Positions 5,807 to 18,441 of a DNA stretch of 64,000 nucleotides are shown here, in pieces. The stretch lies in IMG/VR virus record IMGVR_UViG_3300034022_001261; one strand, 5' to 3'. The position numbers were made by a program, and so were the translations under genes. Within the stretch, counting starts at the first letter, position 1; the number at the start of each line of letters is the position of its first letter. The stretch is from a virus. A model generated the notes under the pieces. That model did not search any database, was not told the origin of the DNA, and worked only from the letters and a program-made list of their open reading frames with translations.

Positions 5807-6976
5807 ATGCCTACTATTAATACTAAAACTAAAGAAGAGATAGTCTCTAGAATACTAAGTGCATTGGAAAGAAATGCTAGTATTAGCGCTACTTCTCCTG
5901 GTTCTATTGCAAGGGCTTTTGCAGAATCATTTGGAGCAGAGATGTTCTATTTATATGAATCATTTAAAGAAGCTATAAATCAAACCAATCTATCAACGGC
6001 TTCAGGTAGGTCCTTGGACTTGATTGGGGAACTCTATAATGTCCAAAGAAAGACCATATCAGATCAATTAATATTTGACAGATCTACTGCTAACATAGAA
6101 TTCTTTTTAGATATAGCTAGTTCTGGCGATGTCATTATCCCCAAAGGTACTTTAGTATATAATGATGTTGGCTCTTTCTCTTCCGCCCAATACTCTTACA
6201 CCTTAGTAGGAGATGTTGTAATCCTTTCTGGACTCAAGAAGGGCTATGGGGCTGTGCAGCCAAACTTTCAGTCTAACGATTACGTAGCTTCAGTTGGCTC
6301 ATTAACTAGGCATAATTATATTTCCCCTCCGGGATCCCTAGTATTTTGTTCTAATCCAAAAGAAATATATCCAGTCTTGAACTCTGAGTCAGACGATAAT
6401 TATAGAAGAAGAATTATTTCTTCAGTCAAAATAAATGCTACAGGAACTGCTGAAGCGTTAAGATTTGCTGCACTTTCCGTAAAGGGAGTTAAGGACATAA
6501 GAGTAAAGGAAGCTTCGTATGGGCTTGGCTCTTGTGATGTTATCATAGTTCCAGAGGTAGCTGGCAATATTGGAGTAATCCCACAAACCGTAACTAATAC
6601 CATAGCTCCTATTAGGCCAATTGGGATTAGAATGAATATAACCATGGCAGAACCGGTAGACTATTCACTACAAGCCGTTATAACGCTTCCTTATGGCACT
6701 GGAGAAAACCTTCGTGTAGGAGTACAAAACCAAGCTACCATTTTTGTTAAAAGATATCTTAATTCACTGACAATAGGAGATAGTGTTTCCATTCAAGAAA
6801 TAGAGGCTAGGATCAGATTATCTTCCGATTTAGTCAAAGCTGTCAATATAACAGCCGCTTCCGCTAAGGGGGTTAATGTCAATAGAAAAGATTTTAGGCC
6901 TTCATCTGAAAGAGAATATATAGTAGCTGGCAATATTAACATTTCTTCTGTTATAATAGGTGTATCTAATTACTAA
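5807..6976 (+). CDS. Baseplate J-like wedge protein
   Basis: TASGRSLDLIGELYNVQR, ESDDNYRRRI and GTAEALRFAALSVKGV motifs typical of Baseplate_J. Confidence 0.8.
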   Translation: MPTINTKTKEEIVSRILSALERNASISATSPGSIARAFAESFGAEMFYLYESFKEAINQTNLSTASGRSLDLIGELYNVQRKTISDQLIFDRSTANIEFFLDIASSGDVIIPKGTLVYNDVGSFSSAQYSYTLVGDVVILSGLKKGYGAVQPNFQSNDYVASVGSLTRHNYISPPGSLVFCSNPKEIYPVLNSESDDNYRRRIISSVKINATGTAEALRFAALSVKGVKDIRVKEASYGLGSCDVIIVPEVAGNIGVIPQTVTNTIAPIRPIGIRMNITMAEPVDYSLQAVITLPYGTGENLRVGVQNQATIFVKRYLNSLTIGDSVSIQEIEARIRLSSDLVKAVNITAASAKGVNVNRKDFRPSSEREYIVAGNINISSVIIGVSNY

Positions 6977-6996: not shown

Positions 6997-8232
6997 ATGG
7001 CCGAAAAATATTTTTTGATCACAACCAACCACATAATTAAAGCACCTAACATGACGCAGGCTAAATTAGCCGTAGAGGGTGAAATGGATTTCTTGGGTGA
7101 AGTATTAAAGAACGATTCTCATTCTAAAGAGATACAAGCTGCAGAGGCATTCAAATTTGCTGGGTATAACACAGCTTCCGACATAGATGATGATGAGCCT
7201 GACGCATATGTAGACCTGGAAGATTCTCCAACTGAAGTTAATAGATTTGATTTTATTCGATCTGAGAATAAGAGATTAGCTAAATTAGCTGAAAAAAATA
7301 AGAACGTTAAAGATGAAGCTATACTAGCCGTTTACGAAGCAGCATATGATGCCTTCCTTGACTTTGATCTTCCCCCTATTAAGCAGAATGAAATTACTTC
7401 AGGAAAAGCTGGAGTAGGAGAAACTGCTGTTGCAGTCTTTGGAGACTGGCAGCTCGGCAAGGTTACCCCTAGTTATAACTCTGAGGTATTGGGACAAAGA
7501 ATAGAAGCCTATGCTGAAAAATTAGTAGAGATTACCAATATTCAAAGAACTCATCATCCAGTAGACAATCTTCATGTTTGGCTTTTGGGGGATATCGTTG
7601 AGGGTGAAGAAATATTCCCAGGGCAAAGTCACTTAATTGATTCAGGTTTGTACAGACAAGTTGGAGTTAATGGCCCTGAGATCCTTGGCAATTTCCTCAG
7701 AACCGCACTTCAGAACTTCAAGCATGTCCATGTGACTGGGGTCATAGGTAACCATGGAGCTGTTGGTGGAAGAGCAAGAAAGCAGCATGACCCTGAGACT
7801 AATATGGACAGACTCCTTTATAAGATTGTCGAATTAATATTCAAAGATGAGCCTAGAATCACCTTTAATATTCCAGACGGTAAGGGCGAAAGAAACTTCT
7901 ACGCAGTAGACACTATTGGCAGCTATAGCTCCCTGCTTATCCACGGAGATCAAATGCCTGCACCAAGCGCTTCCTATGGTTACTATAAAAAGGTAATGGG
8001 ATGGAAAGATGGTGCTATCCCGGAGCATTTTGAAGATGTATTTATGGGGCATTATCACCAGCAGGTGAAGATGACTATAGGTAGTAGTCTTTTGAGAATT
8101 TCTGGCTCTCCAGAAAGTCACAACACCTATGCTCAAGAGTATTTCTCCTCTATGAGTAGACCATGTCAGCACTTAATGTTTGTCCACCCAGATAATGGAG
8201 TTACTTCAGAGTACTCAATCTGGCTAGACTAA
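6997..8232 (+). CDS. Calcineurin-like metallophosphoesterase with an extra N-terminal domain
   Basis: Five motifs GDWQ, LGDIVEG, GNHG, IHGD, GHYH. Confidence 0.8.
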   Translation: MAEKYFLITTNHIIKAPNMTQAKLAVEGEMDFLGEVLKNDSHSKEIQAAEAFKFAGYNTASDIDDDEPDAYVDLEDSPTEVNRFDFIRSENKRLAKLAEKNKNVKDEAILAVYEAAYDAFLDFDLPPIKQNEITSGKAGVGETAVAVFGDWQLGKVTPSYNSEVLGQRIEAYAEKLVEITNIQRTHHPVDNLHVWLLGDIVEGEEIFPGQSHLIDSGLYRQVGVNGPEILGNFLRTALQNFKHVHVTGVIGNHGAVGGRARKQHDPETNMDRLLYKIVELIFKDEPRITFNIPDGKGERNFYAVDTIGSYSSLLIHGDQMPAPSASYGYYKKVMGWKDGAIPEHFEDVFMGHYHQQVKMTIGSSLLRISGSPESHNTYAQEYFSSMSRPCQHLMFVHPDNGVTSEYSIWLD

Positions 8233-8251: not shown

Positions 8252-11200
8252 ATGAAACAATATATATTAGCCTTAAGAAGTCTTGACTTTATTAAGTCTG
8301 GTAAGAGTTGGTCTACTGGATCTATCGACTTATACAATAACAAGTCCTATACCAACTACTCTATTACTAGATCAAGATTTGGTATAGATGAACTTGGAGA
8401 TAGAACTTTTGTTGGCACACAGATAGTCCAAGATGCTACGCCAAGCGTAACTGTATCCGGGCTAGAAGCTGAGACAGTTACTAATTATGGCGAAATAGTC
8501 AAAGAAGCAGGAGTTATATCCTATAGTGTATTTGACTATAATGAAAATATTGGTCAGTATTTCATCTTTACTACAGGGGACCAAGCTACACCTTATTATG
8601 TATTGCAGGGATCACAAACGCCTGATCTATTTAGGTTTGTTGATACAAGCTCGCAAATAGACATACTAAGCTACAAAGCTGCATTCACAAATATAAATGC
8701 AAAAGATGCTCCAACATATACTATAAAAGTTTATGAAGGAGATGCTGCAGAGGGTCCATGGATGCTCTCTTCCATTTCTTCAGATGTAGGGACTCTATTC
8801 ATCAGTAATGCTAAGCGTTACTCTAAGTTTGAAGTAGAAGTAGAATCTGAGCTAGAGCCATCTGATGTAGAAAATTTTGGTTTTGTTTTATTAGTCCAAG
8901 TATCAATAGCAGACCCAATACCCCCGGTGCTAGGTAAGAGCGCTAAAAACATCTTGGCAAGATTTCCATCTTGGATGAAAATGTATGAAGACTCTATGGA
9001 CCAAGCTACTCCTGATCTATATGTTCCTCAAACTGTAGCTGGAAAGTTTATCAATGCGCTTATTGCTGACTACCCAGAAGACTTTGAAAAACAAAAAGAT
9101 TTATTTGGATTAGATAAAGCTATATCTACAGCTGATACCGATCAATTATCTTGGATTTATTCTATAACAGATGTCCCGCCTAACCACACAAGTGTTACCG
9201 GCGAAGGTTTAGTCTCCCTATCTAAACTTAGTTCCATAGAAGATCTTTACGAATCCAGAAAAGGCGACCTCTGTTACTACTATAATCCAGTAGACAGGGA
9301 AATGTTTACAGTTACATTATTCCCTTATTTGAGCATAGATGGAAAGTCCTATAATCAAAATCCAATTCTTAGATGGAACTGGTTTGATGAATTTGGAACT
9401 CGAGTTGGTTTAAAAAGACTGTACTTAGAAAGTAATGATAATTTTAGATTAAGAATTCTTGATGTATATCAAAACCTTCCAGGAGTTTCTTCTGATAGCT
9501 TTAAGTTAACTCTTCGTCGCGAGCTAGACATATGGTCTGCCTATGGAGCAACCCCTGATTCTGATTATCTTGGAGCTACCCCAGAGATAATTGAAATTGA
9601 AGACATGGAAACTAGTACTCCGTACTTCTCTTTCGCTGGAAATCCTCAACCTGAGTTTAAGAACTTTGTTAAAAATTTAAATGAAAAATACCCAGTTAAC
9701 TGGGGATATGTTAAATGGGATAATGGTTTTTGGGATTATGCTGGAAAAGATCAAACTGGAATTGGAAGAATAAAAGCTTCCTATGATGACAGCGCAAGCC
9801 CTTTTGGAACTTATTATCAAGCTGGAGTAGGCGACAATAATGATGCGCTGATCATGGTAAAGGAACCGATTGAATCTAATATAGATTTTTCCGCTAAGTT
9901 TAAAGCTCATGGGATTCGTAAAACTGGAGTAGAAGATGTATATTCCCCTATTGCTGTTAATTATGAGTATTACGGATCCTATTATCAAACAGTGTATGAG
10001 AATACTTCAGCAACAGCAAATTTTGATTATGCGTTAATTTTACCGCCGCATGCTTCTCATGCTAGCCCATCTGTCTACCATGCCACGATCAATACTTTCC
10101 CGACAAACTCTTACTCTCCAACTCATTCCTCTAGTCCTGAATACAGTATTACTAAAATTTTTGATGCAGAAGGAAATAGTATAGATGGAATTAATTTTTA
10201 TAACAGAGTAACTGGAGAACTATATAATGACTCTACCGCAACTCCTGCTACAAGTAAGGTTAACTTCTACTACGCTACAGAACTATCCGCAACTCCAATG
10301 CTCGGTTCTGCTGATTCCCATATAAAGTTTGCTGACGCAACTCCTATTACATCTACTATAGGTACTCCCGTAAGAATAACTAAGCCGTACTTCACAACTA
10401 CTTCAGCTGATATTAAAGTTGTTTCAATTAAATACGATGCAGTGACAAAAAGATTTTATACTACTCCAAAAATACCAGGAAGTTTGGAAATTAATGCGAG
10501 TAACGATACGAGTGTTACTAAAGATTTTACTTTAGACAAAAACTTTATACAAAATAATATAGTGTTTCCTCCAGGGTCTACTCCTGAATACATCTATATA
10601 GACAATTCAACTCCTTTTGGATATTTTTCTGCAACACTGTATGAGGACACCGGACCTTTTAAGGGATTCGGCGGAGTTGCATACGATCCTAGTTCTGGAC
10701 TAGATCAAGTAATCCCTTCATCCCCCAATATAATTGCATCCTATCTTAGTCCAAACTTTGCTACTCCTACATTACATCCAGGGTATAGAGATACAACTGG
10801 TAGTACTGTTAACTATTACTTTACTTCTTTGCTGTATCCTTATGGGGCTACTCCAACATCAATAGTTTTTTCTAGCGCAGACAGTGCAAACTACCCATTT
10901 ACCGCAGATGTTCTAACTGAATTTACGGCGCACAGTACTCCAATGATAGATGGAACTGTTAATGAGTTTGGAGTTGTCAGAACCGATCCAGATAATAAAG
11001 ATGAAAACTTTACTCAAAACAGCAATCTAGTTGGAAGATATAATTTAAGTTATTCTGACTTTGGCATTGATGCGGTTAACTATAGAATCAAAAAAATAGA
11101 AGCAGTCAATGATGTAGACGGTGTGGATTTATCTTTGTCAAAAGAGTTTGTCTATAGAAATACTGATCAGAATATATACTTTGCTAACTCAATTATTGAA

Positions 11201-12889
11201 GATGAATTTAATAAAATTAATGGGGTAGAAGTTAGCGCTGAATATGAAGCTAAATATGATTCCTATATTCACACTGGTTGGTATAGTCAAAATGAAGAAG
11301 ATCATTATATCTATAGCGATCCAGTAGAGGAAGCTCATGTTACCCCAGGCTTCACTCTCTCCTTAGACGCAGTTGCATTACAAGGTGCTCCTATTATTGT
11401 TCAAAGAAATATAGCAACACCTGGCAGTACTACGATGAATAGTGCAACTCCAGAAACATTAAGAGAAGTAGTTTTCCCGGACCAAGCAACACCAACTACA
11501 CTCTCTTTAATTAATTACGAGACAATATACGCCAACGCAAGCAATAATATATACCTAGGTTATGAAGACGTATACGACGTAACAGTGGTAGATGCTATCA
11601 CTGGTTATACAGTTTTAAGCAATGGTCAAACAAAAACTAACGAGATACAGGCATTTTCTTCTGCAACTCCAGTGGTAAATGGAAGAGAATACAACGTTAC
11701 TTATAAGGTAAGAAATTCCTACTTAATAGATAATGATTATTATGATTCAATTAATCAAAAATATATTAGTAAAATGCAATTTGATTCTACTCCATCTACC
11801 GTGTATTCATACGACGTAACATACGAATCAAACTACGTTAATCAATCAACTCCAATTTCTTTGACTGTAGATCCTTTGCAATTGTGGGACCAAGAAGGTT
11901 TTGTCTACTTGAGTCACAATGACTATAATTTTAATACAGCTATTATTAATTTAAAACCGGAATATATTATTGATGATGGTGATGATTATACAACAATAAC
12001 AATCCAATCAGTTGATGTAAACGGAAACTCAAAACCTTATCAAACTTTTAGAATTACTGGTCCTTACATCACCGCTGATGCCCAGTATATCACTACTGAC
12101 ATTAATGGTTTTGCTTATACTAATATTAAGTACAACGGAGTTATGCCTTCTGCTACTCCTGGAAGTTATATTACAGTCTCTGGCGTAGTCAACGGATCAA
12201 ACAACGCACATGCAAATTCACAAACGCAAGGCTATATAACGGTACTAAATTTCGATATAGTCACTGAATATTCAATGCAAAATCTAATTAAAGCGATAGT
12301 AGACACTCCATCTATTAAGGCAGATGGCATAAGCCAACAGTATATTAGAGGAATTATAACATCTGGGGCTACTCCAGTATCTAATAATGTTATTTATTGG
12401 AGAAAAGGAAGAACTCTTTATGACATCTTTACAGACCAAGATTACTCCAACTACGTAAGATCTGACAGTAATGGCAACTTCTCAATAGGCCCAATTCAAG
12501 CTAGCTCTTCAAAAGACCCAGGTTATTGGATGGTTGCTGTGGAGTCAGCTCATTCGGTGACTCCATCTTCAACCCCAGTTACGGTATCAGGAGATATTGT
12601 ATATTGGTCTGAAAAATATGATAACTTAAATTATCATTCAGGAGGCGCTGTATTATATAATTCAAATGTACTATTAGGGTATGGAGCTAAGATGTCTTCT
12701 ACTCCTAACTTTACTTTAAATTATCATGATGCTTCAGACGCCACTGCCTATGCTGCCACTCCCAATTGGCTTCCGCCAAAATGGTATCCTCTAGACAGAG
12801 CAGAGCAGTATCAAATGGGACTGTTGGGTTCAACGCCTAATGTTATTAGTAGTTATGGTAAATTAATGAATGATTATGAGGAAGAATAA
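8252..12889 (+). CDS. Large virion/baseplate structural protein (1545 aa) rich in Ala/Ser-Thr-Pro motifs
   Basis: Long intact ORF in the baseplate module. S/T/Y/N-rich beta-type composition; 32 TP dipeptides counted by hand. Confidence 0.6.
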   Translation: MKQYILALRSLDFIKSGKSWSTGSIDLYNNKSYTNYSITRSRFGIDELGDRTFVGTQIVQDATPSVTVSGLEAETVTNYGEIVKEAGVISYSVFDYNENIGQYFIFTTGDQATPYYVLQGSQTPDLFRFVDTSSQIDILSYKAAFTNINAKDAPTYTIKVYEGDAAEGPWMLSSISSDVGTLFISNAKRYSKFEVEVESELEPSDVENFGFVLLVQVSIADPIPPVLGKSAKNILARFPSWMKMYEDSMDQATPDLYVPQTVAGKFINALIADYPEDFEKQKDLFGLDKAISTADTDQLSWIYSITDVPPNHTSVTGEGLVSLSKLSSIEDLYESRKGDLCYYYNPVDREMFTVTLFPYLSIDGKSYNQNPILRWNWFDEFGTRVGLKRLYLESNDNFRLRILDVYQNLPGVSSDSFKLTLRRELDIWSAYGATPDSDYLGATPEIIEIEDMETSTPYFSFAGNPQPEFKNFVKNLNEKYPVNWGYVKWDNGFWDYAGKDQTGIGRIKASYDDSASPFGTYYQAGVGDNNDALIMVKEPIESNIDFSAKFKAHGIRKTGVEDVYSPIAVNYEYYGSYYQTVYENTSATANFDYALILPPHASHASPSVYHATINTFPTNSYSPTHSSSPEYSITKIFDAEGNSIDGINFYNRVTGELYNDSTATPATSKVNFYYATELSATPMLGSADSHIKFADATPITSTIGTPVRITKPYFTTTSADIKVVSIKYDAVTKRFYTTPKIPGSLEINASNDTSVTKDFTLDKNFIQNNIVFPPGSTPEYIYIDNSTPFGYFSATLYEDTGPFKGFGGVAYDPSSGLDQVIPSSPNIIASYLSPNFATPTLHPGYRDTTGSTVNYYFTSLLYPYGATPTSIVFSSADSANYPFTADVLTEFTAHSTPMIDGTVNEFGVVRTDPDNKDENFTQNSNLVGRYNLSYSDFGIDAVNYRIKKIEAVNDVDGVDLSLSKEFVYRNTDQNIYFANSIIEDEFNKINGVEVSAEYEAKYDSYIHTGWYSQNEEDHYIYSDPVEEAHVTPGFTLSLDAVALQGAPIIVQRNIATPGSTTMNSATPETLREVVFPDQATPTTLSLINYETIYANASNNIYLGYEDVYDVTVVDAITGYTVLSNGQTKTNEIQAFSSATPVVNGREYNVTYKVRNSYLIDNDYYDSINQKYISKMQFDSTPSTVYSYDVTYESNYVNQSTPISLTVDPLQLWDQEGFVYLSHNDYNFNTAIINLKPEYIIDDGDDYTTITIQSVDVNGNSKPYQTFRITGPYITADAQYITTDINGFAYTNIKYNGVMPSATPGSYITVSGVVNGSNNAHANSQTQGYITVLNFDIVTEYSMQNLIKAIVDTPSIKADGISQQYIRGIITSGATPVSNNVIYWRKGRTLYDIFTDQDYSNYVRSDSNGNFSIGPIQASSSKDPGYWMVAVESAHSVTPSSTPVTVSGDIVYWSEKYDNLNYHSGGAVLYNSNVLLGYGAKMSSTPNFTLNYHDASDATAYAATPNWLPPKWYPLDRAEQYQMGLLGSTPNVISSYGKLMNDYEEE

Positions 12890-12891
12890 GT

Positions 12892-15800
12892 ATGAAAAAG
12901 TTTATTGATAAAACTAATTCCCTTAAAGAACCAGCTATTAAAACTGGTAACTTCGTGCCCCGTGATGCGGTTAATTTAGGTTGGTTTTCGGGCAGGGAAA
13001 TATCTCCTAAAAACAATATATCATTAGTAGATTTGTCTGGTTTGATCCCGGAAAATATGACTACAAGTAATCAGTCGGACAAATTAATGTATGCCAATGA
13101 ATTTGGTATATTAGAAGATGCCAATGGCAACACTCTTATTGACTCAGATGATATTTCTGTAAGTTCCATTTTCTTAAACGCTGAGACACTAGACAGCAAC
13201 TACACAGCTGCTGATATGAGTCAAAAAGCATTTGTCCACTCATACTATGTTAGTAGATTTTTTACCCTTATTCCTAGCAGATCTTATACATCGTCAGCAT
13301 TGACTAACTATTTAGAAGAAGAATACATACCAAATCATATTAAGGTTTTGGACGAAGAAGGAAAGCTATATGCCGACCCAATAACTGGAGCAAAAAAATA
13401 TAGAATATCACTTGAATCATTTGTGACTAAAGTCAATAAGGATTTAGAAAGTGTTCCTCATAGAATAATAGTTCTTATAGATAACCCAAACCCAACTAAT
13501 TTGAAAATTGTTTACGATAAAGTTGAAGTAAATCAGGATGGCACCTGGTTTGGTCAATATCTTAAATTTGAAGAAAATATAAATTCTGTAAAAATATTCT
13601 CTGAGACTAGAGAAGAAACCGAAACCATAGATCCATCTAATGGGGATATGATGAAATTTTCTATTAAAAGAAACAATAAAAGATCATTAGTAGATGGATT
13701 AAATTTAAATAATTCTGGCAATCAAATATACATCAATAGAAAAGCATTAGATGATAACAGAGTTTTTGAAATATTTAACTGGAGGCTAGTAGCAAAAATT
13801 AGTAATAGTGTTAATTTTTCTCAAGTAAATTATGGCCAAGAAACAACAGGTAATAATGTACTACAAAAGACTGTTAAGGTTGGAGTTTTATATTCATCAA
13901 ATGAAGGACTTGACTATAGCAAAGTCAAACCATACGTAGCACTCAACTTGCAAAATTCCGTATTCAATCTATCCGGTTATGATTTCGAAAATCCAAATGC
14001 AACCTCTTCAAATCTCAATGAAGGTAAGTACTGGCTAGTAGATATAGATACCGTAAGTGATCTATCCGATTATGACGTAATATTTTCTGCAGTGCATTGG
14101 AGACTTACCGATAGTCAATCTCAAAAAATGCGTGATTTTTATACCACAAATAATGGCACGCTAGTAATAGACGCAAGCCAATGTTCAGCTAATGATTTAA
14201 CAGCCCTTAATTCTAGCTTAACAATATCGTCTGCTTCAGCAACTATTAGCAACCCAACCTATGCTAGCGCAACTGAAGCAGGCAGTCTACTAACCGACAC
14301 CACTAAGAATAATGGTTTTTCCATATCAAATGCAGAATTTCAACAGGATTGCGGAATACATGGATATACAAGAAACATTGCAAATGAATATAAGAATTAT
14401 AAATACTTTACTAATTCAAGTGTAAATTCCATACTATCTAGTGGCGCAAATAAATTTAGTGTTTTAGTAAGAAATATCCCCATTACGAATAACCTATCAG
14501 CTGGCAATATTATAGCTTCTACTTTCCCCATATTTGATTACTGCAATAACATCTATTTGGGTAGCAATTTAAATCCTACTAATAATTACGGAGAAACCAG
14601 TATTAGTTTAGCCCAAGGAAGTGTTTTTTCTGACTTTGTAGAAGGACCTTATAAATTCCTCTACAACTGCATGCTTGTAGCAATCAATGACAGAATAGAA
14701 TCTTCGAGATCTGTAATTGACGTTAGATCTAGCGTGCATTATTTTACTACTGGCTGGAATAACAATTGGGTTATTAATTCAGATGTTCTCTATGATGAAG
14801 AAAAAACTCAATATTATGAAAATATCAATAACGCAGGTGTCAACATATATGCTAGAAATATATTAAATTCACCTAAAACTTATTATATAGAAGAAATAAA
14901 AAAAATAATAACAGCATATCAAGATAGATTTTTTGATGACAATGAAAACAATATATCATTTTATGTAGAGTATACTAACGCAAACGTTCAATGGACAAAC
15001 ACTATCCCTGTAACTGATTTAGAAAAAAATGAAATATCTTCTTCTTATCAGATAAGAAAAATCTCAAACAAAAATAGTAAATGTTATGCGTACACAGAAA
15101 AAGTTTCACCCGCATTTATAATTCCATCAGGTTTTGGGCCATATCAAATTAGAGCTAAAACAGTAACCAGTGCAGTAGATCCACTTTCTTCTTTCTCTAA
15201 TGTAGCTCCACAAAATTACCCATTTGAATTAAACTTAAGTCACTCTAAGATATCTGGCGGAGACAATCCGAAATCGTTTAGCGCTTCGATTAAAACTCTT
15301 TTGAAGGTAGAGTTTGAACAAACTAATTCCTGGAAACAAGAAGTAGATTCTAATATCGGAGGCAATCTTACAGTATCACGACAGAAAACAGCTGCCATAG
15401 CAAGAACACTTAAAGTAGCCGGCAGGGCTGAAGTCATAAACCCTCCTACTCCCGGGGCTACAAAACCTCTAGCTTACAGTGCCGAAGAAGTACAAACTAG
15501 CGAATCTGCAGATACATTGGCTTCTAGTAGTGATTACAATGCTTTTGTATATACTGGAGATATAGGGCAAGGTAATACTTGGGACGAGTACTTTCAGGGC
15601 AAGGGCTCAGGAACTTATGTTAGATACATAAAGCTAACCATGCACCACGCTGGTTACAATAAGAGTAGTCCGTCCAATGGTACATTTGATGCCTCTTTAT
15701 CAACTGAAGTAAAAGCATTTCAAAAAGCTAATGACCTTCCCGCTGATGGGATTATAGACTCTAGGACCAAAGAAGCAATGGCGTTCATTTGGTCAGGTAA

Positions 15801-18441
15801 AACCGCCGAACAACTAGAGGCCACTAGAGTCAGTGTCGTAGATAAGAACAACTATAAAGATAAAGATATATGGGATTACGTCAATGCAGCGTCAAAGGTG
15901 AGAACCGCAAAAGCAGATATATTATCTGGCAATAATGTTACAATGATTAATTTTACTGGATCATCAAAAGCATCTGAAAAAATAAAGATGTGGGTAAGCA
16001 TTCGTCTTCGTAATGATGCAGTTTTAGAAAAAGTAACTACAGTGAATATACTGCCTATATCACCATGGCCTTCCGCTACATCCTACAAGGGAATAAGAGT
16101 GTTTGATTGGACTACAACAGACACGCCAAGTAGGACTCCATCTCCTGTCAACAACAAGACTCAAGGGTATCAAAAAGATGGAACAATAACAATTACTTTA
16201 GATTCATCTAGTTACAAGGGCAAGTGGCTGAATATACTTTTAGAGGGGTCCATATTGGGCGGCAATAAGTTTGGACCTAAAGCAGCAGGATTAGCATTTA
16301 GTCAAATAAATGTAAACTACAAATATTTAGATATTCAAAACCCAAATACTCCAGCGGTCTTAGAAGAGTGGAATAACGATGGAGTTGAGGCAACTTATTA
16401 CTATTGGTTAAATCACATTGATAGAGTTAGGGTTGAAGGAATAGTAGAAGTCACCCACGATCTAAATAACATATCCTTTAATCCTATATCAACAGATATC
16501 ACTCTGCAGTATCTAAAAAATAATGGAATATTAAAATCTATAATGGTTCATGAACAAGTAGGAGATAGATTGTTTGCTACTAACCCAGCATTCAATCGTA
16601 GTGGATCAGATTCACCTTTAAATAATTCTTCCTTTAAACCAGATTTGTCTAGAAATGAAATAGTAGATATAGCTAACCCTAAGAGTATAACCAGAATTAA
16701 CTCCTCTTCTCTAGTGGCAGGATCAGTCAGGGAGTCTGGAACTTCCATATTATCAAATGACAACTTCATTAATGTCAGCAGTAGCTCTTCAATGAACGCT
16801 GCTGGAGAAACTATTTTAAGTATTAGTGCAAATAGTAAAGTTTCTAGTTACACCGCAGCTACAACCTACAATAGAACTACACCTATATCTGGATACAGTT
16901 TAAAGAAGGTTATAAATAACCAAATAATTAATGGGAAAAATCACACCAATTACTATGACGGGATTATGTTATTGACCAATAGTAATGGAACACCATTTTT
17001 CCCGTTGAATCTCTCACAAGTTTCTGTTACATTAGCCAACACGGAAGACTCCTACTATAGCGATATTATACTCACTAAAGTAGGTGGAGATACTCCTGGA
17101 TTAGAATATGGGTTTTATGATACAACTACTAATCAATTTATTGGCAAAAAAATAACATACCTAAGATATATGCAAAATCCTAGCAATATCTATATAGGCG
17201 TATATGCGTATGATTATGATGGAAATTTGTCCACTCTAAAAGAATTTACTAGTTCTAGCAACGGGTCTATTTATACCCCGGTTTCAATACCATTAAGAGC
17301 AGCCTATCCTGTAGTTAATGTAGTTTCTAATGATAGAAACAAAATTCAATTGTCTGGAATAAATGGAGATTTAAGTAAAACTGAACCATGGCCTTTGTCT
17401 ATTAGTTCAGGTTCTTTTCAGAAGACAATAAATATAAATGCCAACGACGCCAGAGATTGGAAAGCCTCCTATGGTGGTCAGAATTTAATAGCTTCCTATG
17501 ATACGTCTTCTATAACAAGCGTGCCATGGTCAAGAATGTTTGGAAGAGGATACTACGATATTATAGGAGAACGTCCTAAATACAATAACTCTAGAGCTAT
17601 TACATTAAGGCAAACCCCACTACACGTTATAAAAGGCTATTCTTCAGATCTAAGTGGAAAAAATGTTCCAATGAAACCAGCGCTTAAGGTATATACAAGG
17701 GTTAGTGAAACTAGTCCTTGGTTATTAATTCCTTATTCTGAGATAGTAAACTTTAATGCAAGTACCGGTTTAATTGAGTTTAAGAATCAAATTATATCAA
17801 ACAATGAAGACTTAACAAAAGTAGACTACACTATTGAATATAGTAAACTTAGCGTTAAGCAGTCGGATGGAGTTCCAATTCCTACTAACCCATTTTTGAA
17901 TAAAGATACAGTACAATTAAATAAGCCTTTATACATTTATATTCTTCCCAAAAAGGTATACAAAAGTGATAGTGTCAATAATTCAATTAGACAAGTAGAA
18001 GTTACCGAGTATCCTACTGGTCCAGTTATAAACTTTACCTATAACAATAATATATTCAATAAATTTGACCAAGTTGCGTATGACCCATTTGCCCAGCTAA
18101 TAGGAATAATATATGTAATAAATACCAACGATGATGAAAACTTTAACTTTACAGACCTAAGAGTAAAGGGTGGGGGAATCTCTGCGAACTTTGACACCAA
18201 TACTATACTTGATGATATCTCTCAAGCAGTTTCCTATTGGGACATCTACCCTCCAATGGCAGAAGCATATCCAAGAGGTGGCTATGTTATGGTTAAAATT
18301 CCATCTATAGTTAAGAAAAACTTCATTAATCCTCAAGAAGTTTATGATATAGTTAGAGATAACTTAACAGCAGGTGTTGTATTTGACCTATACGATACGG
18401 ACGGAAAGGACTGGGGATCAAGTGTTACATCATCTTCCTGA
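12892..18441 (+). CDS. Large virion protein (1849 aa) with an internal peptidoglycan-binding (PG_binding_1-like) domain
   Basis: Intact ORF. Segment YVRYIKLTMHHAGY...GTFDASLSTEVKAFQKANDLPADGIIDSRTKEAM at about 15610-15780. Confidence 0.6.
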   Translation: MKKFIDKTNSLKEPAIKTGNFVPRDAVNLGWFSGREISPKNNISLVDLSGLIPENMTTSNQSDKLMYANEFGILEDANGNTLIDSDDISVSSIFLNAETLDSNYTAADMSQKAFVHSYYVSRFFTLIPSRSYTSSALTNYLEEEYIPNHIKVLDEEGKLYADPITGAKKYRISLESFVTKVNKDLESVPHRIIVLIDNPNPTNLKIVYDKVEVNQDGTWFGQYLKFEENINSVKIFSETREETETIDPSNGDMMKFSIKRNNKRSLVDGLNLNNSGNQIYINRKALDDNRVFEIFNWRLVAKISNSVNFSQVNYGQETTGNNVLQKTVKVGVLYSSNEGLDYSKVKPYVALNLQNSVFNLSGYDFENPNATSSNLNEGKYWLVDIDTVSDLSDYDVIFSAVHWRLTDSQSQKMRDFYTTNNGTLVIDASQCSANDLTALNSSLTISSASATISNPTYASATEAGSLLTDTTKNNGFSISNAEFQQDCGIHGYTRNIANEYKNYKYFTNSSVNSILSSGANKFSVLVRNIPITNNLSAGNIIASTFPIFDYCNNIYLGSNLNPTNNYGETSISLAQGSVFSDFVEGPYKFLYNCMLVAINDRIESSRSVIDVRSSVHYFTTGWNNNWVINSDVLYDEEKTQYYENINNAGVNIYARNILNSPKTYYIEEIKKIITAYQDRFFDDNENNISFYVEYTNANVQWTNTIPVTDLEKNEISSSYQIRKISNKNSKCYAYTEKVSPAFIIPSGFGPYQIRAKTVTSAVDPLSSFSNVAPQNYPFELNLSHSKISGGDNPKSFSASIKTLLKVEFEQTNSWKQEVDSNIGGNLTVSRQKTAAIARTLKVAGRAEVINPPTPGATKPLAYSAEEVQTSESADTLASSSDYNAFVYTGDIGQGNTWDEYFQGKGSGTYVRYIKLTMHHAGYNKSSPSNGTFDASLSTEVKAFQKANDLPADGIIDSRTKEAMAFIWSGKTAEQLEATRVSVVDKNNYKDKDIWDYVNAASKVRTAKADILSGNNVTMINFTGSSKASEKIKMWVSIRLRNDAVLEKVTTVNILPISPWPSATSYKGIRVFDWTTTDTPSRTPSPVNNKTQGYQKDGTITITLDSSSYKGKWLNILLEGSILGGNKFGPKAAGLAFSQINVNYKYLDIQNPNTPAVLEEWNNDGVEATYYYWLNHIDRVRVEGIVEVTHDLNNISFNPISTDITLQYLKNNGILKSIMVHEQVGDRLFATNPAFNRSGSDSPLNNSSFKPDLSRNEIVDIANPKSITRINSSSLVAGSVRESGTSILSNDNFINVSSSSSMNAAGETILSISANSKVSSYTAATTYNRTTPISGYSLKKVINNQIINGKNHTNYYDGIMLLTNSNGTPFFPLNLSQVSVTLANTEDSYYSDIILTKVGGDTPGLEYGFYDTTTNQFIGKKITYLRYMQNPSNIYIGVYAYDYDGNLSTLKEFTSSSNGSIYTPVSIPLRAAYPVVNVVSNDRNKIQLSGINGDLSKTEPWPLSISSGSFQKTININANDARDWKASYGGQNLIASYDTSSITSVPWSRMFGRGYYDIIGERPKYNNSRAITLRQTPLHVIKGYSSDLSGKNVPMKPALKVYTRVSETSPWLLIPYSEIVNFNASTGLIEFKNQIISNNEDLTKVDYTIEYSKLSVKQSDGVPIPTNPFLNKDTVQLNKPLYIYILPKKVYKSDSVNNSIRQVEVTEYPTGPVINFTYNNNIFNKFDQVAYDPFAQLIGIIYVINTNDDENFNFTDLRVKGGGISANFDTNTILDDISQAVSYWDIYPPMAEAYPRGGYVMVKIPSIVKKNFINPQEVYDIVRDNLTAGVVFDLYDTDGKDWGSSVTSSS

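What the first reader, a model, noticed from the sequence alone, without database searches (positions are those of the whole stretch)
8252..12889. Ala-Thr-Pro motif scattered 17 times through one virion protein: candidate sequon for phage-encoded modification
Seen (hand count): 32 Thr-Pro dipeptides in 1545 aa, of which 17 are ATP and 9 are STP (for example DQATP x3, YGATP x2, SATP x4). They are dispersed singly in loops, not as a low-complexity tract. From composition roughly one ATP would be expected. The motif recurs in neighbours (DSAATPN in 21027, DSATPN in 25517, TATPE in 25918) but not in the metabolic enzymes. Established: mycobacteriophage virions can be glycosylated by phage glycosyltransferases, and Thr/Pro contexts are common O-glycosylation or Hyp-glycosylation sites. 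Inference: [AS]-T-P is the acceptor sequon for the glycosyltransferases or prolyl hydroxylase in this window, giving a glycan-shielded baseplate. Alternatives are phospho-Thr-Pro sites for the adjacent phosphoesterase, maturation cleavage sites, or docking sites.
Basis: partly seen in the sequence, partly recalled or inferred. Interest (0 to 1): 0.8.

Follow-up and report, generated by a model that had tools for sequence, protein, structure and literature searches.

The report
Ala/Ser-Thr-Pro motif on phage baseplate protein

Summary
ORF 8252-12889 (1545 aa) has 32 Thr-Pro, of which 17 are ATP and 9 STP. Shuffling predicts 1.2 [AS]TP, and codons vary at synonymous sites. ATP is the most enriched tripeptide in the 155-kb genome.

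The protein sits where a wedge protein follows baseplate J. It has a helical core and a string of Ig-like domains.

Among 198 long homologues, 192 carry 7-27 sites and six carry 0-2. None carries 3-6. The six arose by at least two independent losses. They keep the loops and usually the Pro, but Thr is replaced by Glu, Val, Asp, Lys or Tyr. This all-or-none pattern points to a trans-acting reader rather than 20 independent structural turns.

The motif is also conserved in a ~260-aa Ig-like protein next to the major capsid gene, and it is enriched in some tail fibres.

The proposed enzymes fail. Complete relatives without the GT60 and P4H-type genes keep 19-21 sites. The phosphoesterase is also dispensable, and no conserved kinase was found.

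Two adjacent GT2 genes (33211-34053, 37130-37822) were found in 32 of 33 motif-rich records.

Another pass of this scan had already noted this same stretch.

The parts
8252..12889 (+). 1545-aa baseplate wedge-position protein. It has an N-terminal beta domain, a conserved helical core (about residues 223-573), a string of Ig-like domains (about 800-1455) and a conserved C-terminal tail that folds with low confidence. It carries 26 [AS]TP sites.
   Evidence: In Bacillus jumbo phages the homologue directly follows baseplate J.
9005..9013 (+). Site A252-T253-P254, one of the near-universal sites (116 of 120 homologues have TP). It lies in a loop that is deleted in the Bacillus phage homologue.
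9545..9622 (+). Loop with three sites (GATPD 432-436, GATPE 441-445, STP 455-457). The first two are kept in 117 of 120 homologues. pLDDT is about 56-71. About half of the loop is absent from the Bacillus phage homologue. In motif-less lineages the second site reads GAYPE, AAHPE, GALPE or ASDPE.
12830..12838 (+). Site S1527-T1528-P1529 in the conserved C-terminal tail (109 of 120 homologues have TP).
5807..6976 (+). Baseplate wedge subunit (gp6 / baseplate J-like), which fixes the position of the motif protein in the baseplate module.
   Evidence: phrog_6, E 1e-42
33211..34053 (+). GT2 glycosyltransferase no. 1, a core gene of the clade and a candidate reader/enzyme (inference only).
   Evidence: 52-66% identity in distant relatives; adjacent to GT2 no. 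2 where GT60 and P4H are missing
37130..37822 (+). GT2 glycosyltransferase no. 2, a core gene. Its best match among solved structures is Listeria GmaR, a flagellin O-GlcNAc transferase. Candidate reader/enzyme (inference only).
   Evidence: 26 of 27 tier-1 records, 6 of 6 complete, 5 of 5 tier-2
34055..35011 (+). GT60-type 'GlcNAc' transferase (PF11397). It is an accessory gene and is not required for the motif.
36231..36776 (+). P4H-type 2OG-Fe(II) oxygenase (PF13640). It is an accessory gene and is not required for the motif.
6997..8232 (+). Mre11/SbcD-like phosphoesterase (phrog_284). It is absent from G012, which keeps 21 sites.
63755..64000 (+). Start of a 958-aa collagen-like tail fibre that runs off the window. 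It has 5 ATP sites against 0.94 expected.

Best explanation
[Ala/Ser]-Thr-Pro is a short linear motif on exposed loops of virion proteins of this phage clade. It is concentrated on the large baseplate wedge protein and is kept because a trans-acting factor reads it. The most likely reader is a cytoplasmic protein-modifying enzyme that acts on the Thr, and the best current candidates are the two adjacent, clade-wide GT2 glycosyltransferases (O-glycosylation). Shown here: the enrichment; protein-level selection; strict A/S-T-P specificity; conservation of about 20 sites per protein down to about 30% identity; all-or-none loss in some lineages with the loops and Pro retained; and presence in unrelated virion proteins. 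I put about 0.7 on a trans-acting reader of some kind. The 0.42 confidence given below is for O-glycosylation specifically.
For: (1) 26 sites against 1.2 expected, with varied codons. (2) Every one of about 190 long homologues from tier 1 and tier 2 carries 7-27 sites. (3) The distribution is bimodal: 192 proteins have 7-27 sites, six have 0-2, and none has 3-6. (4) The six motif-less proteins are intact full-length orthologues. At 13 columns where their sisters have ATP in 91 of 130 cells, they have it in 3 of 72. They keep Pro in 42 of 72 cells and put Glu, Val, Asp, Ala, Arg or Lys in place of Thr. At site 443, GATPE becomes GAYPE, AAHPE, GALPE or ASDPE while the Pro is invariant. (5) There were at least two independent losses: P0200 groups with motif-rich P0192 and P0186 (support 1.0), and the others sit in a separate clade (support 0.98). 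(6) Distant Bacillus phage homologues have one site each, and in them the 253 loop and part of the 434/443 loop are deleted, so the motif is not part of the core fold. (7) The same motif is conserved at aligned positions in a ~260-aa Ig-like protein next to the major capsid gene in six genomes. It is also enriched in tail fibres: 13 against 1.8 in G012, and 5 against 0.9 in this genome. (8) Both GT2 genes are core, syntenic and 50-82% identical. GT2 no. 2 was found in 32 of 33 motif-rich records, counting the window's own genome, including all that are at least 90% complete. Its best match among solved structures is GmaR, a flagellin glycosyltransferase (PMC3150276). The 50,697-record phage collection holds the pair only in GX15bay and not in the motif-less Bacillus phages.
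Against: There is no direct evidence of any modification. The GT2 pair is a core gene set, so its co-occurrence with the motif is uninformative until motif-less genomes are examined, and those could not be fetched. The pair sits in the replication and nucleotide-metabolism module, and GT2 enzymes could instead act on DNA or envelope glycans. Phage GX15bay has the pair (42% and 28% identity) but shows no [AS]TP enrichment. Lineage-specific inserted domains carry 2 sites in 1239 aa, against about 15 expected at core density, which is odd for a general surface shield. Within motif-rich proteins a lost Thr is most often replaced by Ser, Asn or Asp, which also fits an ST/Asx-Pro turn. Many sites are positionally conserved, as structural residues would be.
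Confidence: 0.42

Rival explanations
1. The motif is purely structural. [AS]-T-P would be a favoured loop or strand-cap turn (an ST-turn followed by Pro) in this protein's beta-rich architecture, inherited from the ancestor, with no reader.
For: 22 of 26 sites lie in loops, often 1-4 residues before a strand. Several sites are near-invariant. Thr is replaced mostly by Ser, Asn or Asp when Pro is kept. Inserted domains lack the motif.
Against: Twenty independent turns should not all be lost together, yet six proteins in at least two lineages lost all of them while keeping the loops and the Pro, with charged or bulky residues at the Thr position. Other beta-rich virion proteins of the same genome have none: the 1849-aa neighbour has 0 and the 4084-aa hub has 3 against 1.7 expected. 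The motif occurs in helical-core loops, Ig-like domains and a disordered tail alike. The core-loop sites are missing from Bacillus phage homologues of the same fold.
Confidence: 0.2
2. The motif is a docking site. The [AS]TP loops would bind a partner, such as a virion protein, an assembly chaperone or a prolyl isomerase, and the motif decays when that partner is lost.
For: The all-or-none loss fits any trans-acting reader. The most conserved sites (434/443/456 and the C-terminal tail) lie in conserved regions of low pLDDT, as interface segments often do.
Against: About 20 docking sites per chain, spread over all domains and also present on a head-module protein and on tail fibres, is hard to reconcile with one stoichiometric partner. 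No candidate partner was identified.
Confidence: 0.15
3. The sites are phospho-Thr-Pro sites, written by a proline-directed kinase and erased by the adjacent phosphoesterase.
For: S/T-P is the classic proline-directed kinase context. A metallophosphoesterase gene lies directly upstream.
Against: The phosphoesterase has no homologue in complete genome G012, which keeps 21 sites. No Pkinase-family gene is conserved in five genomes. Ser-Pro is not enriched (7 against about 8 expected), which is unusual for such kinases. A host kinase cannot be excluded.
Confidence: 0.06
4. One reading: a P4H-type oxygenase hydroxylates the Pro and the GT60 enzyme adds GlcNAc, as in the Skp1 pathway.
For: A PF13640 oxygenase and a PF11397 (GT60) gene lie within 3 kb of each other in the window. 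From my own recall, not tested here: Skp1's modified Pro follows a Thr.
Against: Complete relatives G003 and G012 have neither family and keep 19 and 21 sites. G006 lacks GT60 and keeps 24. Earlier notes place most P4H-like genes next to collagen-like and Pro-rich fibre genes, which are more natural substrates (untested here).
Confidence: 0.03

Closest known systems
Mycobacteriophage virion glycosylation (Freeman et al. 2023, Cell Host Microbe; cited through PMC12619734, since the paper itself is not held)
   Same: Phage-encoded cytoplasmic glycosyltransferases are proposed to decorate exposed virion proteins.
   Different: As PMC12619734 summarises that work, the glycans sit at the C-termini of capsid and tail-tube subunits. 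Here the candidate sites are a strict tripeptide scattered through a baseplate protein, and no modification has been shown.
HMW1 adhesin / HMW1C cytoplasmic multi-site glycosylation in Haemophilus influenzae (from my own knowledge)
   Same: A large beta-rich surface protein is modified in the cytoplasm at about 30 dispersed copies of a short sequon by a dedicated transferase. This is the closest working analogy.
   Different: That system is N-linked at Asn-X-Ser/Thr by a GT41 enzyme and is bacterial, not viral. No homology is claimed.
Listeria GmaR and other flagellin O-glycosyltransferases (PMC3150276, PMC9638930, PMC7591256)
   Same: These are cytoplasmic O-glycosylation systems acting on Ser/Thr of a surface-exposed filament protein. 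GT2 no. 2 has GmaR as its best match among solved structures.
   Different: The match is weak (29 bits, covering the nucleotide-binding half only). Flagellin systems have no strict tripeptide sequon as far as I know.
Skp1 prolyl hydroxylation / GlcNAc pathway (PhyA, Gnt1; GT60)
   Same: The window encodes both enzyme families, and the motif contains Thr-Pro.
   Different: The enzymes do not travel with the motif across relatives.
T4 gp7 / Mu gp48 / TssG-position wedge proteins
   Same: The gene lies directly after baseplate J/gp6, and the protein has a conserved helical core followed by peripheral domains.
   Different: No sequence or fold match to solved gp7 or TssG structures was obtained. 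None of those proteins is known to me to carry such a motif.

Membership tests
Sequon-directed protein glycosylation system | A defined acceptor motif, enriched and conserved in the substrates | tested here: met
   26 sites against 1.2 expected; 7-27 sites in 192 of 198 long homologues; strict A/S-T-P
Sequon-directed protein glycosylation system | A transferase that co-occurs with the motif and is lost where the motif is lost | tested here: inconclusive
   GT2 no. 2 was found in 32 of 33 motif-rich records.
Sequon-directed protein glycosylation system | A glycan detected on the acceptor residue | not testable with these tools
   This needs mass spectrometry of virions or of co-expressed proteins.
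Skp1-type Hyp-GlcNAc pathway (P4H + GT60) | Both enzyme families are encoded | tested here: met
   PF13640 at 36231-36776 and PF11397 at 34055-35011
Skp1-type Hyp-GlcNAc pathway (P4H + GT60) | The enzymes travel with their substrate motif | tested here: not met
   G003 and G012 are complete, lack both families and keep 19 and 21 sites
Baseplate wedge protein at the gp7/TssG position | The gene lies immediately after baseplate J/gp6 in the baseplate module | tested here: met
   In the window a phosphoesterase gene lies between the two genes, and it is absent from G012. The genes are directly adjacent in Bacillus phages WH1 and KLEB27-3.
Baseplate wedge protein at the gp7/TssG position | Fold or sequence similarity to solved gp7/TssG-type proteins | tested here: inconclusive
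   A profile search against PDB found nothing. Foldseek on the N-terminal model found nothing below E 0.001; pTM was 0.33.
Bacterial Ig-like (intimin/invasin, Big_1-type) domains in the C-terminal half | Beta-sandwich fold matching solved Ig-like adhesin domains | tested here: met
   Foldseek matches intimin D0-D1 (6tpl, E 7e-9), InvE and InvD. Two homologues carry PF02369.

The most novel reading that the evidence does not exclude
A clade of aquatic jumbo phages uses a strict three-residue sequon, [Ala/Ser]-Thr-Pro, to direct phage-encoded O-glycosylation (or another Thr modification) to about 20 loops of its baseplate wedge protein, and to a head-decoration protein and tail fibres. Lineages that lost the writer let all the sites decay. 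This would be the first defined protein-modification sequon in a bacteriophage, found from sequence alone.
Probability: 0.4. Interest if true: 0.85.

Novelty: new variant of a known kind. Interest (0 to 1): 0.7.

Why it matters
Phage virion glycosylation has so far been shown only in mycobacteriophages, as far as the papers I could search show, and there without a sequence rule. A tripeptide rule would let modified virion proteins be predicted from metagenomes. It would give a simple peptide substrate for assaying orphan phage GT2 enzymes. It would also bear on how phages tune the surface chemistry of the host-contacting baseplate, for example protease resistance, adhesion or evasion of host receptors. 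The all-or-none loss across lineages is also a general comparative test for separating trans-read motifs from structural ones.

Tried and rejected
- **DNA-level motif:** rejected, because codons vary at all three positions.
- **Internal repeat or domain periodicity:** rejected. Spacing is irregular, and sites occur in helical-core loops, Ig-like domains and the tail.
- **Megablast against phages:** no match.
- **Pfam on the protein:** no family.
- **PDB profile search:** nothing.
- **Foldseek on the N-terminal half:** nothing significant.
- **Motif count against presence of accessory GT60 or P4H:** no relation.
- **GX15bay, the only cultured-collection phage with the GT2 pair:** no enrichment.
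- **NCBIfam naming of the GT2s:** uninformative.
- **Moraphage paper (PMC12619734):** it describes a different lineage (family-B polymerase phages). I used it only for its summary of virion glycosylation.
- **Freeman et al. 2023:** not held in the library.
- **Full-length MAFFT/FastTree run:** timed out. It was repeated on the first 800 residues, so that tree rests on the N-terminal half only.
Full report
**What is there.** The window is part of a 154,849-bp IMG/VR virus record, estimated about 73% complete, with 36.5% G+C in the window. ORF 8252-12889(+) encodes a 1545-aa protein with 32 Thr-Pro dipeptides. Of these, 17 are Ala-Thr-Pro and 9 are Ser-Thr-Pro, exactly as reported.

Shuffling the sequence 20,000 times gives 0.48 ATP and 1.22 [AS]TP on average, and never more than 8 [AS]TP. 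The six TP not preceded by Ala or Ser equal the chance expectation, so the entire excess is the tripeptide [AS]-T-P. Gly or Ser is mildly preferred one position further upstream.

All synonymous codons are used at the three positions, so the signal is at protein level. ATP in this ORF is the most significant tripeptide enrichment in the whole genome. It exceeds even the tandem Gly-Pro-Thr of the collagen-like fibres. No other ORF of the genome comes close: the next are 3 against 0.17 and 5 against 0.94.

**What the protein is.** It follows a gp6/baseplate-J-like wedge subunit (phrog_6, E 1e-42) and a phosphoesterase gene. It precedes a run of large virion proteins.

The only relatives in cultured phages are 536-590-aa proteins of Bacillus jumbo phages (WH1 gp087, KLEB27-3 gp042). 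These sit directly after baseplate J and align with residues 223-573 at 24% identity. I therefore read it as the wedge protein at the gp7/TssG position, extended by peripheral domains.

AlphaFold models of the two halves have mean pLDDT 73-74 and low pTM, so only local structure is usable. They show an N-terminal beta domain, a helical core, and then a string of beta-sandwich domains. Foldseek matches those domains to intimin/invasin Ig-like domains (6tpl, E 7e-9). The N-terminal half has no significant PDB match.

By my reading of the DSSP strings, 22 of the 26 sites lie in coil, often one to four residues before a strand, against about 60% coil overall. The loop with three sites (434, 443, 456) and the C-terminal tail (1484, 1503, 1528) are conserved but modelled with low confidence.

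**The motif is a family trait.**
- The first database search returned 164 homologues at E <= 0.001, of which the best 120, down to 33% identity, were listed. All but one carry 13-27 sites against about 1 expected; P0078 has 7.
- The same holds for 80 IMG/VR loci and a second, independently drawn set of 80.
- Six positions are near-universal (253, 434, 443, 1080, 1180, 1528), and about 49 positions recur. Each protein occupies about 20 of them.
- Ala and Ser interchange freely at the first position. Thr at these sites is twice as conserved as other Thr.

**The test that separates a read motif from a structural one.** A profile of the conserved core searched against 1.84 billion representatives gave 488 hits.

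Among 198 long-form proteins the number of sites is sharply bimodal. 192 have 7-27 (mode 19), six have 0-2, and none has 3-6. The six are intact, full-length orthologues that keep the family's invariant residues.

I compared them at 13 alignment columns where ten motif-rich sisters have the motif in 91 of 130 cells.
- The motif-less proteins have the motif in 3 of 72 cells.
- They keep the Pro in 42 of 72 cells.
- They show few gaps.
- In place of Thr they have Glu (14), Val (10), Asp (9), Ala, Arg or Lys.

At the near-invariant site 443, GATPE becomes GAYPE (twice), AAHPE, GALPE and ASDPE, while the Pro stays invariant across the whole family.

P0200 groups with motif-rich P0192 and P0186 with support 1.0. 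The other five lie in a separate clade (support 0.98) with a motif-rich trio nested inside. So the motif was lost wholesale at least twice. This tree uses only the first 800 residues.

Twenty independent structural turns would not be abandoned together while their loops persist. A set of sites that all depend on one reader would be. The charged replacements also indicate that these positions are solvent-exposed.

The Bacillus phage homologues of the core fold have one site each. They lack the 253 loop and part of the 434/443 loop, so the motif is an add-on to the fold.

**The motif is not confined to one protein.**
- A ~260-aa protein sits immediately downstream of the major capsid gene. By language-model features its nearest named clusters are Big_5 Ig-like proteins, which is a lead only. 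It keeps two or three aligned [AS]TP sites in six genomes whose wedge proteins are only about 30% identical.
- A 1621-aa fn3-bearing tail fibre in G012 has 13 sites against 1.8 expected.
- The 958-aa collagen-like fibre that starts at the end of this window has 5 against 0.9 expected.
- Smaller proteins in G003, G028 and G030 are also enriched.

All of these are likely external virion parts.

**Which enzymes.** The window does encode a GT60-type 'GlcNAc' transferase (PF11397) and a P4H-type oxygenase (PF13640), plus three GT2s, a GT17-like enzyme, an RmlD-like reductase and methyltransferases.

- **GT60 and P4H.** Complete, terminally repeated relatives G003 (209.7 kb) and G012 (231.5 kb) contain no PF11397 and no PF13640 gene, yet their wedge proteins keep 19 and 21 sites. 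G006 (100% complete) lacks GT60 and keeps 24.
- **Phosphoesterase and kinase.** The neighbouring phosphoesterase has no homologue in G012, and no Hanks-type kinase is conserved.
- **The GT2 pair.** GT2 genes 33211-34053 and 37130-37822 are core. They are syntenic in all complete relatives, and adjacent to each other where the accessory genes between them are missing. They are 50-82% identical, far more conserved than the wedge protein. GT2 no. 2 was found in 26 of 27 tier-1 records, including all six that are at least 90% complete, and both genes in 5 of 5 tier-2 records.
- **GmaR link.** GT2 no. 2 has Listeria GmaR as its only hit among solved structures (E 6e-6). GmaR is a flagellar glycosyltransferase (PMC3150276, which cites Shen et al. 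2006).
- **Distribution in cultured phages.** In the 50,697-record phage collection the pair occurs only in the metagenomic phage GX15bay. There it is part of a seven-gene glycosyltransferase cluster upstream of the terminase. The Bacillus phages with motif-less homologues lack it.

These facts make the pair the best candidate, but they are not a test. A core gene co-occurs with everything, and GX15bay shows no [AS]TP enrichment.

**What speaks against a simple 'glycan shield'.** Lineage-specific inserted domains in four homologues total 1239 residues and hold only 2 sites, where core density would predict about 15. Within motif-rich proteins a lost Thr is most often replaced by Ser, Asn or Asp. 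That fits an ST/Asx-Pro turn as well as generic loop composition. I therefore keep a structural reading at about 0.2 and a docking-motif reading at about 0.15.

**What could not be done.** The decisive comparison is gene content of genomes that encode the motless orthologues. Their sources are Logan and ENA assemblies. IMG/VR, the JGI metagenome collection and the GTDB genome collection yielded only motif-rich relatives.

**Verdict.** It is unproven as glycosylation. The same stretch had been noted by another pass of this scan, and I found no description of such a motif in the papers I could search.

Noticed in passing
L005-L082 (for example L012, L024, L026): homologue ORFs: In many relatives the stop-to-stop frame of the wedge gene starts 140-500 bases after the tblastn match begins. 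This suggests a frame change near the 5' end and may be related to the CGGA four-base decoding noted elsewhere for this genome.
   Followed up: no
G028-G031 matches to window 33211-34053: tblastn matches to GT2 no. 1 in four tier-2 records are read through one or two stop codons (TAG, TGA or TAA), although the gene is otherwise 52-58% identical. It could be a frameshift or recoding site, or an alignment artefact.
   Followed up: no
Relatives G001-G027: PF13640 (P4H-type 2OG oxygenase) genes are expanded to 5-10 copies, often in one cluster, in many relatives. They are entirely absent from two complete genomes (G003, G012).
   Followed up: partly
P0070, P0079, P0089, P0102 against window 8252-12889: Some homologues carry lineage-specific inserted domains of 180-570 aa (two insertions in P0070, three in P0079), with precomputed Pfam hits PF14312 (P0079) and PF07603 (P0089, P0102). 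These are probably swapped-in binding modules, and they almost lack the motif.
   Followed up: partly
L231, L232: Two relatives sit in MAGs: a 106-kb contig binned as Cyclobacteriaceae (36% G+C) and a 210,765-bp contig binned as Iamiaceae. The second is probably a whole phage genome mis-binned. The first is a weak hint of a Bacteroidota host.
   Followed up: no
L123 (MK557849.1, Caudovirales GX15bay) 13126-18249: A 52-kb mangrove-soil phage carries homologues of both core GT2 genes at the head of a run of seven glycosyl- and methyltransferase genes just upstream of the terminase. It also has glycoside-hydrolase-bearing tail proteins.
   Followed up: partly
window 34968-35411: A 147-aa staphylococcal-nuclease-like gene (PF00565, phrog_452) between the GT60 and DenV-like genes is 82% identical in G003 and G006. 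It is among the most conserved proteins compared (RNR 80-82% and RNase H 77-83% are similar).
   Followed up: no
window 12620-12889 (residues 1457-1545): The C-terminal ~90 residues are strongly conserved (WxPPKWYP...QYQMGLLGSTP) but modelled at pLDDT 30-44. This is probably an interface that folds only in the assembled baseplate.
   Followed up: no
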